In this document: positions 161 to 3,884 of the stretch, one piece after another
Numbering within the stretch: the first letter of the stretch is position 1
Layout: every line of letters begins with the position of its first letter
Source: a phage
Length of the DNA stretch: 64,000 nt
Sequence record: PZ151149.1
Direction: 5' to 3' (one strand)
The notes under the pieces: generated by a model
Databases searched by the model: none
What the model saw: the letters and a program-made list of their open reading frames with translations, nothing else
Told to the model about the DNA's origin: nothing
Made by a program: the position numbers and the translations under genes

Positions 161-192
161 AAAAAAGCCACCCTTTCGGATGGCTTTTGATT
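161..192 (-). terminator. intrinsic terminator (hairpin plus T-tract on minus strand)
   Basis: AGCCACCC-TTTCGG-ATGGCT inverted repeat, T6 on minus strand; near-identical hairpin recurs at 6510, 11449 and 54370. Confidence 0.55.
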
Positions 193-418
193 ATATTTTA
201 TTCACGTCCATTTGTATAGTAGTGTTTGAATCGACCTTTGCTAAACTAGTTAAACATAGTAACCAATTCACCATCCCTTTCCAATGATAACCCTTCCTCG
301 TCTTAGACGGGTCTTCCGATTCGGCAGTAATTGAACACGCGAAAGTATGAGGAAGCCAAATAGTTGTGTTAATGCTAGTATTCTTTTACTTATGGTATGC
401 ATCCCACGGTGACTAACA

Positions 419-817
419 TTAAGCCAGTCGAGTGAGTTTATAAATTGTTTTAAAGCATAGAGCTTTGATATCGTCTAAAATGCTCTGTAACGAGCTATCA
501 ACATCATTATAAATCTCACTAGCCATTTGCGTTAACTCTTGCAAATAGGCAATTTCGCTAATCTCCTTGCGGACGACCAACTTTGGCTGATAACGACCAG
601 TGATCCCAATATTGGTTTCAGTGAAATTATCAACCAATTCTTGCATTTCAAGATAGAACTCTTCTAGAGCCTTATGTTTTGCATAAGATCCAGGACCAGT
701 TACCCCAAAATGCGCAGAATGCATATAAGTAACACTCATCAGACATTCACCGATAAAGCGGTCAACTTTATTAGCCTTTCCCTCTTCGGAAGTCTTTAGA
801 AAATCACTGAATTTCAT
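419..817 (-). CDS. Dps/ferritin-like small protein
   Basis: Translation contains HSAHFGVTGPGSYAKHKALEEFY, matching the Dps motif HWNVKGPNFxxLHxKFEELY; start placed at internal Met of ORF 419..916. Confidence 0.55.
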   Translation of the reverse strand: MKFSDFLKTSEEGKANKVDRFIGECLMSVTYMHSAHFGVTGPGSYAKHKALEEFYLEMQELVDNFTETNIGITGRYQPKLVVRKEISEIAYLQELTQMASEIYNDVDSSLQSILDDIKALCFKTIYKLTRLA

Positions 818-1106
818 GTTCTCGATTCTCCATATTATGCAACAGAACAAATTGTTGTGCGGCATATCCCCCCATAATAAAACACTGCCTAGAATCCATA
901 CATTTACTACGAGCATACATCTTCATAATATGGGCATGAAATTTCTGGCTGGTTTCAATGGAAGGAGATATTTTGTTTACATATACTATCATTGCGCCGT
1001 CGAAATAATCAGTAAAGTCACCAGTTGGATCATATTGATCAGCACTGACACTTCCGACCGCAGTCAAGCATATTGCCGCTGTTAGAGTTTTACGAATAAA
1101 TGACAT
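804..1106 (-). CDS. rI: rI-like lysis-inhibition regulator (antiholin) with N-terminal signal anchor
   Basis: 100 aa, N-terminal hydrophobic signal (MSFIRKTLTAAICLTAVGSVSA), adjacent to tk as in T4; recalled similarity to T4 RI (not computed). Confidence 0.5.
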   Translation of the reverse strand: MSFIRKTLTAAICLTAVGSVSADQYDPTGDFTDYFDGAMIVYVNKISPSIETSQKFHAHIMKMYARSKCMDSRQCFIMGGYAAQQFVLLHNMENREHEIQ

Positions 1107-1174
1107 AAGTCATTCCCCCAGATTGAAAATATTCAGTTATATTTATAATCCGGGGCTTTATTTATGATTAACTC

Positions 1175-1771
1175 TTATTTGGTAGTACCATCAATAAAAT
1201 GTTTACGACACACAGAAACATATTTATCCTCTGCACCAACTTCTATTTGAGCACCATCGCGAATAACATTACCATCTTTATCTACGCGAAGGACCATAGT
1301 CGCTTTCTTGCCACAATGACAAATACCCTTCATTTCGACCAGTTTATCAGCAAATGCCATTAATGCCGCAGATCCTTCAAATAGATTGCCCTGAAAGTCA
1401 GTGCGAAGGCCATAGCACAGTACAGGGATATTAGCATCATCAACAAGCGCACACAAGCCTAAAACATGCTCTTTAGTCATAAATTGGGCTTCATCTACAA
1501 ATACAGCATCAGGACGCCAGCGATCCGTTCTACGCTTACCTAACGATTCACGATAAACCAAGTCGAAAAGATCATCCGATTTAGTGAAGGTGATCGCTGG
1601 AGCACTTAGGCCAATTCGGGAAACGACTTCACTTTCTGAATCTCGATTATCAATCGCTGGCTTAAGAATTAATACTCGCATATCACGTTCTGTATAGTTA
1701 TAAGCACTTTGTAACAGAGAAGTTGATTTGCCAGCGTTCATAGATGCATAGTAGAAATATAATTGCGCCAT
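1175..1771 (-). CDS. tk: thymidine kinase
   Basis: 198 aa; P-loop NAGKST and overall TK family pattern. Confidence 0.95.
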   Translation of the reverse strand: MAQLYFYYASMNAGKSTSLLQSAYNYTERDMRVLILKPAIDNRDSESEVVSRIGLSAPAITFTKSDDLFDLVYRESLGKRRTDRWRPDAVFVDEAQFMTKEHVLGLCALVDDANIPVLCYGLRTDFQGNLFEGSAALMAFADKLVEMKGICHCGKKATMVLRVDKDGNVIRDGAQIEVGAEDKYVSVCRKHFIDGTTK

Positions 1772-2275: not shown

Positions 2276-2466
2276 AGATGACTCCAATATAATCGACATT
2301 TACATTTAGGGCAATGCGGTTCTTTAATATAATACCCGTCTGTCTTTGGAACACTAACAGGAGCGGTTTTTATATTGTATTCAGTGAAACAACGAAAACA
2401 AGTTACGTTTTCTACAGACTGACGTTTCACCCAATCACCGGAATATAGATCATTTTTATTTGTCAT
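2272..2466 (-). CDS. zinc-ribbon small protein
   Basis: CxxC (CFRC) and CPKCKC pairs; start at internal Met MTNKND. Confidence 0.45.
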   Translation of the reverse strand: MTNKNDLYSGDWVKRQSVENVTCFRCFTEYNIKTAPVSVPKTDGYYIKEPHCPKCKCRLYWSHL

Positions 2467-2926
2467 ATTCAACCACCACAATATTGATATCTGGAGTAGC
2501 AATATTAATGATCTCTTCTACACATTCCCACTCAAGGCCACCGATACCGCAACCGATTTTAGGAATATAGAAAGGCTGTATAGCACCTTCAAAAACATCA
2601 TTGATAGTCTCAAATCCTTTCAGGATAGCACCATATTCAGCATTTGGACCCGGTCGGAATTGGGTATAGAGATTAACCCCGCACCAGTTATAACCATTAA
2701 CTTGATGCGTCCAGACACTAAACCCACCCAGCTTTTCTACCTTACCGCGAGAAGTTTGCTTGTCAATCTCTAACGCTTGTGGGAACTCTTTCGCGATCTT
2801 CGCAGCAATACCAGCGCCCATAGTATGAAAACAATTACAACCATGAATTAAATGACCGTTTCCTTGTTTAAACAGGGCGATGAGATCGCCCTTTACAGTA
2901 TCAATAATCATAATATAAACCTCCAA
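2456..2926 (-). CDS. macro-domain protein (ADP-ribose binding/processing family)
   Basis: Motifs HGCNCFHTMGAGIAAKI (cf. NAANxxLxGGGVxxAI) and IPKIGCGIGG (cf. FPAISTGIYG); GGAGG 7 nt upstream of ATG. Confidence 0.6.
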   Translation of the reverse strand: MEVYIMIIDTVKGDLIALFKQGNGHLIHGCNCFHTMGAGIAAKIAKEFPQALEIDKQTSRGKVEKLGGFSVWTHQVNGYNWCGVNLYTQFRPGPNAEYGAILKGFETINDVFEGAIQPFYIPKIGCGIGGLEWECVEEIINIATPDINIVVVEYDK

Positions 2927-3293: not shown

Positions 3294-3884
3294 TCAATAG
3301 CGTTTAGTTTTAAGAATGCCTTTACTCTTTAGATGGTTAGCTTTTTTTAGTACGTCATCAGCATAACCTAAACCGGCTTTATAGTTCCACCCTGCATTGT
3401 AAGAAGCTAGCGCGAGTCGGATATTACCGTTTCGAACATCCAGCCAGTATGCTAACTCATCCATCGCGTAGAATGCAGAAACCTCGCGATTCATGATAAA
3501 GTTGATAGTCTGGCGATCACTCATTTTAACACCGCGCTTTGCATTTTTCGCTTTCACCGTTTTAAGGTAATTTTGAAATAATCCATAAGCATGATGATTT
3601 TTCTTTGGTGATAAGTTTGCACCCGCGCTTGATTCTTGCCATGCGATACCCGCCAAGATGTGACCTAAACCCTTTCCGTTATAGCGAATATTCGGATGGT
3701 CCTTTTTCAACTTACCGCTTTTCTCGAATTGCTCGCCGTATTGATAGGCGAAATGTAAATTATCTAGTTGGTGTGCTGTAAAGTTGTCTATCGGCGCTTT
3801 TTTGATCGGTGCGCTAGTCGATGCGTGTGTAGCACCAACGGCTAGTGACAGACTCAATACTATCGCTTTTAGAACTTTTAACAT
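3294..3884 (-). CDS. exported lytic transglycosylase (SLT-domain protein)
   Basis: Signal peptide plus SLT motifs AGIAWQESS, GLFQ, YNAGWNY. Confidence 0.75.
   Translation of the reverse strand: MLKVLKAIVLSLSLAVGATHASTSAPIKKAPIDNFTAHQLDNLHFAYQYGEQFEKSGKLKKDHPNIRYNGKGLGHILAGIAWQESSAGANLSPKKNHHAYGLFQNYLKTVKAKNAKRGVKMSDRQTINFIMNREVSAFYAMDELAYWLDVRNGNIRLALASYNAGWNYKAGLGYADDVLKKANHLKSKGILKTKRY

What the first reader, a model, noticed from the sequence alone, without database searches (positions are those of the whole stretch)
419..817. Miniature Dps/ferritin-like protein next to the rI-like gene
HSAHFGVTGPGSYAKHKALEEFY aligns residue-for-residue with the Dps ferroxidase-site motif HWNVKGPNFxxLHxKFEELY, but the protein is only about 132 aa. 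A phage mini-Dps could protect DNA or sequester iron during infection; I do not recall one in T4.
Basis: partly seen in the sequence, partly recalled or inferred. Interest (0 to 1): 0.55.

Follow-up and report, generated by a model that had tools for sequence, protein, structure and literature searches.

The report
Phage Dps-like mini-ferritin (T4 rI.-1 orthologue)
The gene just downstream of the lysis-inhibition gene rI encodes a shortened relative of the bacterial iron-detoxifying protein Dps that keeps its iron-binding residues; it is the counterpart of T4 gene rI.-1, so it is a known gene with an untested function.

Summary
Window 419..817 (minus strand) encodes a 132-aa protein. Its residues 33-55 align without gaps to the Dps ferroxidase motif, and the gene overlaps the 3' end of an rI antiholin gene by 14 nt.

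- Sequence searches of the PDB return almost only Dps proteins (best E 9e-5; family profile 1.4e-5).
- In 130 diverse homologues the only invariant residues are H36, H48, D63 and E67. These are the counterparts of Listeria Dps ligands H31, H43, D58 and E62.

This is the orthologue of T4 rI.-1 (129 aa), in Pfam DUF5856 and PHROG 858, and more than 1,400 phage genomes carry it. It is often mislabelled "starvation-inducible transcriptional regulator".

It is 24 residues shorter than Listeria Dps. It lacks the BC helix and the C-terminal part of helix C.

Cage formation and iron chemistry are untested. Homologues in Ackermannviridae and in phage phiR1-37 are recorded as virion proteins. The T4 gene is frameshifted in viable laboratory stocks.

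The parts
419..817 (-). Coding sequence of the 132-aa Dps-like protein. It is the orthologue of T4 rI.-1 and belongs to Pfam DUF5856 and PHROG 858. The stop codon is at 419-421.
   Evidence: ORF. (DUF5856, E 6.9e-21). (phrog_858, E 3e-43). (1,434 phage records; 99.2% identity to Escherichia phage MIZ4, a Krischvirus).
617..721 (-). Codons for residues 33-67, the ferroxidase-centre segment. Codon positions: H33 (719-721), H36 (710-712), H48 (674-676), E52 (662-664), Y55 (653-655), D63 (629-631), E67 (617-619).
   Evidence: H36, H48, D63 and E67 are invariant in 130 homologues; H33 and Y55 are conserved in at least 90%. They align to Listeria innocua Dps H28, H31, H43, D47, Y50, D58 and E62. I checked the H36, H48, D63 and E67 codons by eye.
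707..811 (-). Predicted helix A (residues 3-37). The first ~20 residues are modelled with lower confidence.
   Evidence: DSSP on the model; pLDDT 67-78 for residues 1-20 and above 95 afterwards.
599..688 (-). Predicted helix B (residues 44-73). It carries H48, E52, Y55, D63 and E67 on one face.
   Evidence: The i, i+4, i+7, i+15, i+19 spacing places these residues in one stripe. The sums 48+67 and 52+63 both equal 115, as 43+62 and 47+58 both equal 105 in Listeria Dps. This is the arrangement expected around a two-fold axis (inference).
557..598 (-). B-C crossover loop (residues 74-87). No BC helix is predicted, and about 9 residues are missing relative to Listeria Dps.
428..556 (-). Predicted helices C (residues 88-103, only 16 residues) and D (108-130). 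Helix D carries the conserved D115, T124 and Y126.
804..1106 (-). rI antiholin gene. It lies immediately upstream on the same strand, and its last 14 nt overlap the start of the Dps-like gene. The two are probably co-transcribed and translationally coupled.
   Evidence: PF24205, E 3e-23. (phrog_1246, lysis inhibition). (coordinates).
1140..1147 (-). T4-type late promoter box TATAAATA, between tk (1175..1771) and rI.
   Evidence: one of only 3 such boxes on the minus strand of the window. T4 has a late promoter at the equivalent place (PMC2962797).
163..188 (-). Intrinsic terminator hairpin plus T run, 230 nt downstream of the stop codon. It is the probable end of the rI / rI.-1 transcript.
   Evidence: 11-pair stem followed by TTGTTTTT.

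Best explanation
The gene encodes a phage-lineage, shortened member of the Dps (mini-ferritin) branch of the ferritin superfamily. It is the Krischvirus orthologue of T4 RI.-1.

Shown here:
- It folds as a ferritin-like four-helix bundle.
- It keeps the Dps-type ligand set: H36 and H48 (with E52), and D63 and E67.

Inferred:
- H48 and D63/E67 lie 15-19 residues apart on one helix, about 22-28 A. They therefore cannot form one site within a monomer.
- Their invariance then implies a Dps-type two-fold dimer, in which antiparallel B helices build two inter-subunit di-iron ferroxidase sites.
- At those sites Fe(II) would be oxidised by H2O2 or O2, removing the reagents of Fenton chemistry. Y55, the counterpart of the radical-trapping Tyr50 of Listeria Dps, sits beside the site.

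Open: whether dimers assemble further into a 12-mer cage that stores iron. The BC helix and part of helix C are deleted.

The gene is co-transcribed with rI from upstream early promoters and from a late promoter. My best guess for its role is to protect phage DNA and the infected cell from iron-driven oxidative damage after host stress responses are shut off, especially during prolonged, lysis-inhibited infections. It is not a transcription regulator.
For: Homology:
- phmmer against the PDB returns Dps proteins as the eight best hits (E 9e-5 to 0.05).
- The family profile gives E 1.4e-5.
- hhalign against Listeria Dps aligns residues 24-76 to 19-71 without shifting the ligands. The Listeria sequence was verified as 1QGH.

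Fold:
- The AF2 model has pLDDT 92.5 and pTM 0.85, with four helices.
- Foldseek puts Dps entries at the top, with TM up to 0.75.

Selection on the metal site:
- H36, H48, D63 and E67 are the only invariant columns among 130 representatives that share 27-91% identity with the query.
- Y55 is present in 126 of 130.
- The same residues are kept in T4/T6 RI.-1, Dickeya phage PP35 and Yersinia phage phiR1-37 g280.
- There is no ExxH pair on helices B and D, so this is not a ferritin/bacterioferritin-type intrasubunit site (sequence).

Context:
- The gene overlaps rI, with a late promoter upstream and a terminator downstream.
- T4 rI.-1 over-expression slightly prolongs lysis inhibition (PMC2962797).
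- One homologue sits next to the oxygen-sensitive reductase gene nrdD.
Against: - No iron binding, ferroxidase activity, oligomer state or DNA binding has been measured for any family member.
- The Pfam Ferritin model PF00210 is matched weakly by only 7 of 130 members (best E 0.003), and the query itself does not reach it. The NCBIfam Dps model scores 15 bits against a cut-off of 114.
- The fifth Dps ligand position (E52) varies across the family: E 42, N 34, G 19, D 16, Q 12.
- The Trp next to the first His is usually Leu or Phe.
- In 80 of 130 members, including T4, the His-His spacing is 9 rather than 12.
- The BC helix, part of the Dps dimer interface, is missing.
- The T4 gene is frameshifted at Glu61 in viable laboratory sublines (PMC8573959), so any benefit is conditional.
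- Homologues in other phages are virion components, which points to a different place of action.
Confidence: 0.75

Rival explanations
1. Virion-associated Dps-like protein. The protein is made late and built into, or packaged with, the particle. There it would protect encapsidated or incoming DNA from iron-mediated damage, or carry iron. It would not act as a free cytoplasmic enzyme.
For: Virion evidence:
- Dickeya phage LIMEstone1 ORF78 (13.15 kDa) is a virion protein by ESI-MS/MS, with 3 peptides and 28% coverage. The authors report structural counterparts in ViI for all twelve LIMEstone1 structural proteins of unknown function (PMC3296691).
- Yersinia phage phiR1-37 g280 is annotated 'phage structural protein'.
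- Salmonella phage Sajous1 gp217, called 'Ferritin' by Phyre2, was found by MS. By gene order it matches the Kuttervirus homologue (PMC10892097).

Gene context outside T4-likes places the gene in structural modules:
- portal, Bbp19, DUF5856, then capsid;
- P22-type portal, then DUF5856 with a 4-nt overlap;
- crAss-like capsid and ring-protein blocks.

Other points:
- BFVD fold matches include multi-domain 'Prohead protease' proteins with a Dps-like domain.
- A late promoter precedes rI / rI.-1 here.
Against: - To my knowledge the well-studied T4 virion has never been reported to contain RI.-1.
- In T4-likes the gene sits in an early/late accessory operon beside tk and rI, not among structural genes.
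- MS of phage preparations also picks up non-structural proteins. LIMEstone1 gave rIIB, ligase, PhoH and gp44.
- A 12-mer cage has no obvious place in a tail or baseplate.
Confidence: 0.2
2. Dedicated lysis-inhibition accessory factor. RI.-1 would modulate RIII (and through it the RI-T holin complex) by protein-protein contact, and the ferritin-like fold would be only a scaffold.
For: - The gene lies in the rI operon in T4-likes, overlapping rI.
- Over-expressed T4 rI.-1 slightly delays LIN collapse, enhances the effect of RIII, and relieves RIII toxicity. It has no effect in an rIII mutant (PMC2962797; reviewed in PMC6832632).
Against: - The only invariant residues are the metal ligands, not a surface patch.
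- The family occurs in phages that lack rI, rIII and t: RaK2 (PMC3622015), Ackermannviridae, crAss-like phages and podoviruses.
- The published effects are small and come from plasmid over-expression.
- An antioxidant that keeps the membrane energised would also delay LIN collapse.
Confidence: 0.12
3. DNA-binding 'starvation-inducible transcriptional regulator', as many genome records name it.
For: The PHROG 858 label and many GenBank annotations carry this name. phrog_3636 'DNA binding protein' matches at E 6e-7.
Against: - No DNA-binding domain is detected by Pfam or NCBIfam.
- The name probably comes from garbling 'DNA protection during starvation protein' (my inference).
- The overall pI is 5.4, and the N-terminal 22 residues are only weakly basic and poorly conserved.
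- Dps itself is not a sequence-specific regulator (established knowledge).
Confidence: 0.03

Closest known systems
Dps / mini-ferritin family (Listeria innocua Dps 1QGH, B. anthracis Dlp-1 and Dlp-2, B. brevis Dps, H. pylori NAP, E. coli Dps)
   Same: - Ferritin-like four-helix bundle.
- A ligand set placed on helices A and B, not an intrasubunit ExxH site: H36/H48/D63/E67 align with H31/H43/D58/E62.
- The neighbouring Tyr is kept (Y55 with Y50), as is the H at -3 (H33 with H28).
- The ligand positions are symmetric about the middle of helix B.
- The query's His-His spacing of 12 is the same as in Dps.

   Different: - It is 24 residues shorter than Listeria Dps. There is no BC helix, helix C has 16 residues and lacks about 10 residues at its C-terminal end, and there is no C-terminal tail.
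- Trp32 is replaced by Phe or Leu.
- The Asp47 position is variable.
- Most family members have a His-His spacing of 9.
- It falls below the Pfam Ferritin and NCBIfam Dps thresholds.
- It is known here only from phage genomes and metagenome contigs.
- Its oligomer state is unknown.
T4 RI.-1 (gene rI.-1, 129 aa, 14.6 kDa)
   Same: It is the orthologue:
- same Pfam and PHROG family;
- same position directly after rI and overlapping it;
- same ligands.
Identity is 33% over 98% of the length to the T6, Shigella and E. coli T-even copies.
   Different: - T4-type proteins have the 3-residue-shorter A-B loop (spacing 9).
- T4 also has rI.1 between tk and rI, which is absent here: only 68 nt lie between tk and rI.
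Ackermannviridae and phiR1-37 DUF5856 virion proteins (LIMEstone1 ORF78, Sajous1 gp217, phiR1-37 g280)
   Same: Same family and same invariant ligands, with 23-44% identity.
   Different: - They are shorter at the N-terminus (117-118 aa).
- They are encoded beside structural genes behind their own late promoter.
- They are recorded as virion components (MS-confirmed for ORF78 and gp217).
- There is no rI neighbour.

Canonical Dps genes already reported in phages (Lactobacillus plantarum myoviruses; gut 'Gratiaviridae' and other gut phages)
   Same: They are phage-borne ferritin-superfamily oxidative-stress proteins, proposed to limit iron and ROS damage during infection (PMC8008677).
   Different: Those are full-length Dps recognisable by standard models. 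In 2021 that paper counted, before its own survey, only seven Lactobacillus phages with DPS-like enzymes. The DUF5856 branch in T4-like phages was therefore not being counted as Dps.

Membership tests
Dps (mini-ferritin) family | Ferritin-like four-helix bundle with a long B-C crossover | tested here: met
Dps (mini-ferritin) family | Inter-subunit ferroxidase ligands: His (helix A) and His with Asp/Glu (helix B) from one chain, and Asp plus Glu (helix B) from the two-fold partner | tested here: met
   H36, H48, D63 and E67 are invariant in 130 homologues and align to Listeria H31, H43, D58 and E62. E52 aligns with D47 but is variable in the family. That the site lies between subunits is inferred from helix geometry. 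It was not observed.
Dps (mini-ferritin) family | Significant sequence similarity to characterised Dps proteins or curated family models | tested here: inconclusive
   The PDB searches are significant (E 9e-5 and 1.4e-5). hhalign to a single Dps gives only 42% probability. Pfam PF00210 is not reached by the query and is reached weakly by 7 of 130 members. NCBIfam Dps scores 15 bits against a cut-off of 114.
Dps (mini-ferritin) family | Short BC helix in the crossover loop, packing at the two-fold interface | tested here: not met
   Residues 74-87 are modelled as a loop with pLDDT 88-93. About 9 residues are deleted relative to Listeria Dps.
Dps (mini-ferritin) family | Assembly into a hollow 12-mer with 23 symmetry and acidic three-fold pores | not testable with these tools
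   Only single-chain prediction was available. The conserved D115 and D/E116 at the start of helix D are compatible with a pore, but they could not be placed without model coordinates.
Dps (mini-ferritin) family | Fe(II) oxidation and iron core formation; DNA protection | not testable with these tools
   No biochemical report on any DUF5856 member was found.
Pfam DUF5856 / PHROG 858 (T4 rI.-1 family) | Match above the curated threshold over the full domain | tested here: met
   DUF5856 scores 75.6 bits against a cut-off of 34.6. phrog_858 gives E 3e-43 over residues 1-131.
Pfam DUF5856 / PHROG 858 (T4 rI.-1 family) | Orthologous position in T4-like genomes: tk, (rI.1), rI, rI.-1 on one strand | tested here: met
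   Window: tk 1175..1771, rI 804..1106 and this gene 419..817, all on the minus strand. The same order is seen in T4, T6 and MIZ4.
Ferritin / bacterioferritin / rubrerythrin (intrasubunit di-iron carboxylate proteins) | E ... ExxH ... E ... ExxH ligands inside one bundle | tested here: not met
   There is no ExxH on helix B or helix D, and no His at all after residue 48 (sequence).

The most novel reading that the evidence does not exclude
DUF5856 proteins may be a widespread, phage-specific class of Dps-like proteins that are loaded into or onto virions, T4-like phages included.

The supporting observations are their presence in virion preparations of Ackermannviridae and phiR1-37, their genes lying between portal and capsid genes or among crAss ring-protein genes, and Dps-like domains in multi-domain proteins annotated as prohead proteases.

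On this reading they would guard packaged or injected DNA against iron-catalysed damage, or carry iron. That would be a capsid-plus-ferritin-like-cargo arrangement reminiscent of encapsulin nanocompartments. In T4-likes the gene's link to rI would then tie iron and oxidant status to the length of lysis inhibition.
Probability: 0.15. Interest if true: 0.75.

Novelty: new variant of a known kind. Interest (0 to 1): 0.42.

Why it matters
T4 rI.-1 has been an 'accessory gene of unknown function' in the lysis-inhibition literature (Golec 2010; Abedon 2019). Neither paper mentions Dps or ferritin.

Recognising RI.-1 as a Dps-type protein, with the four metal ligands as the only invariant residues across more than 400 sequence clusters, turns a vague genetic effect into a testable hypothesis. 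Iron and peroxide chemistry may influence how long a T-even-infected cell can be held in lysis inhibition.

It also shows that Dps-like proteins are far more common in phages than the handful counted in 2021, because they hide under a DUF and a misleading 'transcriptional regulator' label.

The recorded virion association in other phage families raises the question of what an iron-oxidising protein does in a virus particle.

Practically, the annotation in more than 1,400 phage genomes should read 'Dps-like ferritin-fold protein', not 'transcriptional regulator'.

Tried and rejected
- Longer ORF from ATG 916 (165 aa). Rejected because homologues start at the position of 817 and the extension overlaps rI.
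- Intrasubunit ferritin or bacterioferritin site. Rejected because there are no ExxH motifs.
- 'Transcriptional regulator' and 'zinc finger protein' labels in GenBank records. No supporting domain was found.
- Genome-collection scan with the family alignment. It failed because no stretch was conserved enough, so I could not test whether cellular genomes carry the family.
- Domain content of the 200-832 aa fusion proteins. Pfam and PHROGs recognise only the DUF5856 part, and the contigs are too short for context.
- Capsid-targeting-sequence idea. The N-terminus MKFSDF resembles T4 MKTYQEFIAE as I remember it. A regex scan found no other such N-terminus in the window, and there is no L/I-x-E cleavage motif, so I left it as an untested lead.
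- Structured RNA in the 230-nt 3' spacer. There is no Rfam match above threshold, and the fold z-score is -2.2 with the terminator included.
- crAss001 tail-hub protein THB (gp39) as a possible DUF5856 member, suggested by gene position next to ring protein 2. I could not test it, and sizes differ (107 vs 140 aa).
- Literature searches for DUF5856, for crAss001 with ferritin, and for 'starvation-induced DNA protecting' with phage gave nothing.

Full report
**What is there**

On the minus strand of the window an ORF runs from ATG 817 to the stop at 419-421 and encodes 132 aa.

Directly upstream on the same strand is a 100-aa protein with a signal-anchor-like N-terminus. It matches the T4 antiholin family (PF24205, E 3e-23; phrog_1246 'lysis inhibition'). 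Upstream of that is thymidine kinase.

The rI stop lies at 804-806, so the two genes overlap by 14 nt. A GGAG lies 10 nt before the ATG at 817.

A T4-type late promoter box TATAAATA sits between tk and rI at 1147..1140 on the minus strand. An intrinsic terminator at 188..163 follows the gene after a 230-nt spacer, and an early-type sigma-70-like promoter for the next gene comes after that.

The closest genomes are Krischvirus (RB49-like) phages: Escherichia phage MIZ4 at 99.2% and KFS-EC at 96% amino-acid identity.

**Is the Dps resemblance real?**

Yes, on three lines of evidence.

Sequence:
- A plain phmmer search of all PDB sequences returns Dps-family proteins as the eight best hits. These are B. 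anthracis Dlp-2 (E 9e-5), Dlp-1, B. brevis Dps, S. aureus Dps, B. subtilis MrgA and three H. pylori NAP chains. The ferroxidase segment aligns without gaps.
- A profile built from 130 homologues again finds almost only Dps proteins (best E 1.4e-5).

Fold:
- An AlphaFold2 model built on that alignment is confident (pLDDT 92.5, pTM 0.85). It shows four helices at 3-37, 44-73, 88-103 and 108-130.
- Foldseek ranks Dps dodecamer subunits first, with TM up to 0.75.

**What selection preserves**

An exhaustive HMMER search of 1.84 billion cluster representatives found 421 relatives at E <= 0.001. Most are 113-150 aa.

In an alignment of the query with 129 of them (27-91% identity to the query), the only invariant columns are H36, H48, D63 and E67. 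Conserved in at least 90% are H33, Y55, G71, D115, T124 and Y126.

I verified my remembered Listeria innocua Dps sequence as identical to PDB 1QGH. I then aligned it by hhalign and by MAFFT. The correspondences are:

| This protein | Listeria Dps |
|---|---|
| H36 | H31 |
| H48 | H43 |
| E52 | D47 |
| D63 | D58 |
| E67 | E62 |
| H33 | H28 |
| Y55 | Y50 |

From established knowledge (Ilari et al. 2000 for Listeria Dps), H31, H43 and D47 of one subunit and D58 and E62 of the two-fold-related subunit form the Dps ferroxidase centre. Tyr50 has been implicated in trapping radicals (Bellapadrona et al. 2010).

H48 and D63/E67 are 15-19 residues apart on one helix, about 22-28 A. They cannot make one site in a monomer.

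The ligand positions are symmetric about the middle of helix B: 48+67 = 52+63 = 115, as 43+62 = 47+58 = 105 in Listeria. This is what an antiparallel B-B' pairing around a two-fold axis requires.

I therefore infer, but have not shown, that the Dps-type dimer with two inter-subunit metal sites is retained.

**How it differs from canonical Dps**

- The protein is 24 residues shorter than Listeria Dps. The MAFFT alignment places the deletions in three places: the BC helix (about 9 residues), the C-terminal part of helix C with the C-D turn (about 10), and the C-terminal tail (6). The model agrees, with a helix-free 74-87 loop and a 16-residue helix C.
- The Trp that follows the first ligand His in Dps is Phe here and mostly Leu in the family.
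- The D47-equivalent position varies: E 42, N 34, G 19, D 16, Q 12.
- 80 of 130 members, including T4 RI.-1, have a three-residue-shorter A-B loop (His-His spacing 9). The query keeps the canonical 12.
- Curated models do not capture it. The query misses Pfam Ferritin PF00210, which only 7 of 130 members touch weakly. NCBIfam Dps scores 15 bits against a 114-bit cut-off.

The BC helix is part of the Dps two-fold interface. Formation of a 12-mer cage therefore cannot be assumed, and I could not test it.

**It is not new to T4**

tblastn finds the family in 1,434 phage records. In T-even phages the hit is gene rI.-1, lying directly after rI. The T6 protein is 128 aa, and its rI and rI.-1 overlap by 4 nt.

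Records name it 'rI.-1', 'putative 14.6 kDa protein', 'DUF5856 family protein', 'starvation-inducible transcriptional regulator' (the PHROG 858 label), 'putative starvation-induced DNA protecting protein', or even 'zinc finger protein'. JGI calls one cluster 'DNA-binding ferritin-like protein'.

The Dps likeness is thus already in annotation pipelines, in garbled form.

The literature I could search has not taken it up:
- Golec et al. 2010 describe T4 RI.-1 as a 129-aa, 14.6-kDa hydrophilic protein of unknown function. Its over-expression slightly delays LIN collapse, enhances the effect of RIII, and relieves RIII toxicity (PMC2962797).
- Abedon's 2019 review repeats this (PMC6832632).
- Neither paper contains the words Dps or ferritin.
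- A 2021 survey stated that, before that survey, DPS-like enzymes in phages had been seen only in seven Lactobacillus phages; it then found them in gut phages (PMC8008677).
- A 2024 paper on Vi01-like phages called Sajous1 gp217 'Ferritin' from Phyre2 (PMC10892097). By gene order this is the Kuttervirus DUF5856 homologue.

**Evidence on the biological role**

- The family is not tied to lysis inhibition. The jumbo phage RaK2 has a homologue but no rI, rIII, rI.1 or t (PMC3622015). Ackermannviridae, crAss-like phages and podoviruses have it without an rI neighbour.
- It is dispensable in the laboratory. A T4 subline carries rI.-1 179dupG (Glu61fs) (PMC8573959). A deposited T4 mutant genome has the CDS truncated at 60 aa.
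- In several lineages it is a virion component.
  - LIMEstone1 ORF78 (13.15 kDa) was recovered from particles by ESI-MS/MS, with 3 unique peptides and 28% coverage. It sits behind its own putative late promoter in a small cluster of structural genes (PMC3296691).
  - phiR1-37 g280 is annotated as a structural protein.
  - Sajous1 gp217 was seen by MS.
- In metagenomic contigs the gene lies in structural modules.
  - Between portal and capsid genes in a podovirus.
  - Overlapping the end of a P22-type portal gene.
  - Beside crAss ring-protein and muzzle genes.
- Elsewhere it is next to nrdD or tk.
- Foldseek against predicted viral structures also matched multi-domain proteins named 'Prohead protease' or 'Dps' that carry a Dps-like domain.

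These observations leave two places of action open, the infected cytoplasm and the particle.

**Best explanation and its limits**

I commit to the following account.
- The protein is a shortened, phage-lineage Dps homologue.
- Its conserved function is metal chemistry at a Dps-type inter-subunit site. The most likely chemistry is Fe(II) oxidation by H2O2 or O2, which removes Fenton reagents.
- In this phage it is transcribed with rI from early and late promoters.
- A protective role during long, lysis-inhibited infections would explain both the gene's position and the small LIN-prolonging effect of over-expression. T4 shuts off host gene expression, so an infected cell could not induce its own stress genes. 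This last step is inference.

Confidence is about 0.75 for 'Dps homologue with a functional metal site'. It is much lower for the physiological role: about 0.3 for cytoplasmic protection, 0.2 for virion-associated action, and 0.12 for a purely protein-protein role with RIII. The 'transcriptional regulator' label has no support.

**Novelty and score**

The gene is a known gene in a known family.

What is not in the literature I could search is threefold:
- the ligand-level argument that RI.-1 is a Dps-type metalloprotein;
- the definition of what was deleted relative to Dps;
- the link between the T4 LIN accessory gene and virion proteins of other phage families.

I rate it a variant of a known kind and of moderate interest (0.42). 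It is useful for re-annotation and gives the LIN field a concrete hypothesis, but it is not a surprise in kind.

Noticed in passing
L021:1468-1821 (LIMEstone1 ORF78); L019:2959-3315 (phiR1-37 g280); L005:4016-4369 (Kuttervirus Guerrero): Homologues of this Dps-like protein are recorded as virion structural proteins in Ackermannviridae and in a Yersinia jumbo phage. LIMEstone1 ORF78 was found by MS with 3 peptides and 28% coverage. These genes sit beside structural genes, some behind their own late promoter.
   Followed up: partly
L006:2753-3187; L011:6001-6450; L013:6001-6423; L017:6001-6387: In metagenomic podovirus, P22-portal-type and crAss-like contigs, the DUF5856 gene lies inside the head or tail structural module. 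It is next to portal, Bbp19, ring-protein or muzzle genes, and it often overlaps the neighbouring gene by 1-4 nt.
   Followed up: partly
Proteins P0128, P0155, P0103, P0126 (476-832 aa): Long multi-domain proteins carry one DUF5856 domain plus unrecognised regions and Q/P-rich linkers. They are strongly enriched in a K-x-F-S motif: 38 observed against 12.8 expected over 29 long proteins, and 11 in P0128 alone. The motif often falls at apparent domain boundaries, which may indicate a processed polyprotein or a docking motif.
   Followed up: partly
L001:2501-2683 (T4 record OZ209057): A deposited T4 laboratory mutant genome has rI.-1 truncated to 60 aa. A published T4 subline carries the same kind of lesion (179dupG, Glu61fs). 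The gene is therefore lost without obvious cost in laboratory stocks.
   Followed up: yes
window 189-418 (minus strand): A 230-nt spacer lies between the stop codon and the terminator. It contains a 44-aa ORF (268..402). There is no Rfam family above threshold, and the RNA fold z-score is only -2.2 with the terminator hairpin included. Its purpose is unknown.
   Followed up: partly
window 1107-1174: Only 68 nt separate tk and rI, holding the late promoter box. The T4 gene rI.1, which lies between tk and rI in T4/T6 and was implicated together with rI.-1 in LIN, is absent at this position in this phage.
   Followed up: no
BFVD matches A0A6J7WIS1, A0A6J7XDU5, A0A6J7WPK9: Uncultured-phage proteins annotated 'Prohead protease' (333-763 aa) contain a domain that superposes on this model (TM 0.60-0.73). 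This suggests Dps-like domains fused to a protein that is built into procapsids. The sequences could not be fetched for checking.
   Followed up: no
window 2456-2926 and 3294-3884 (minus strand): Two upstream genes on the same strand. The first has a Macro-domain-like sequence (GxNCxHxMGAGIA) and is annotated 'phosphatase' in MIZ4. The second is a 196-aa protein with a signal peptide. I did not examine either.
   Followed up: no
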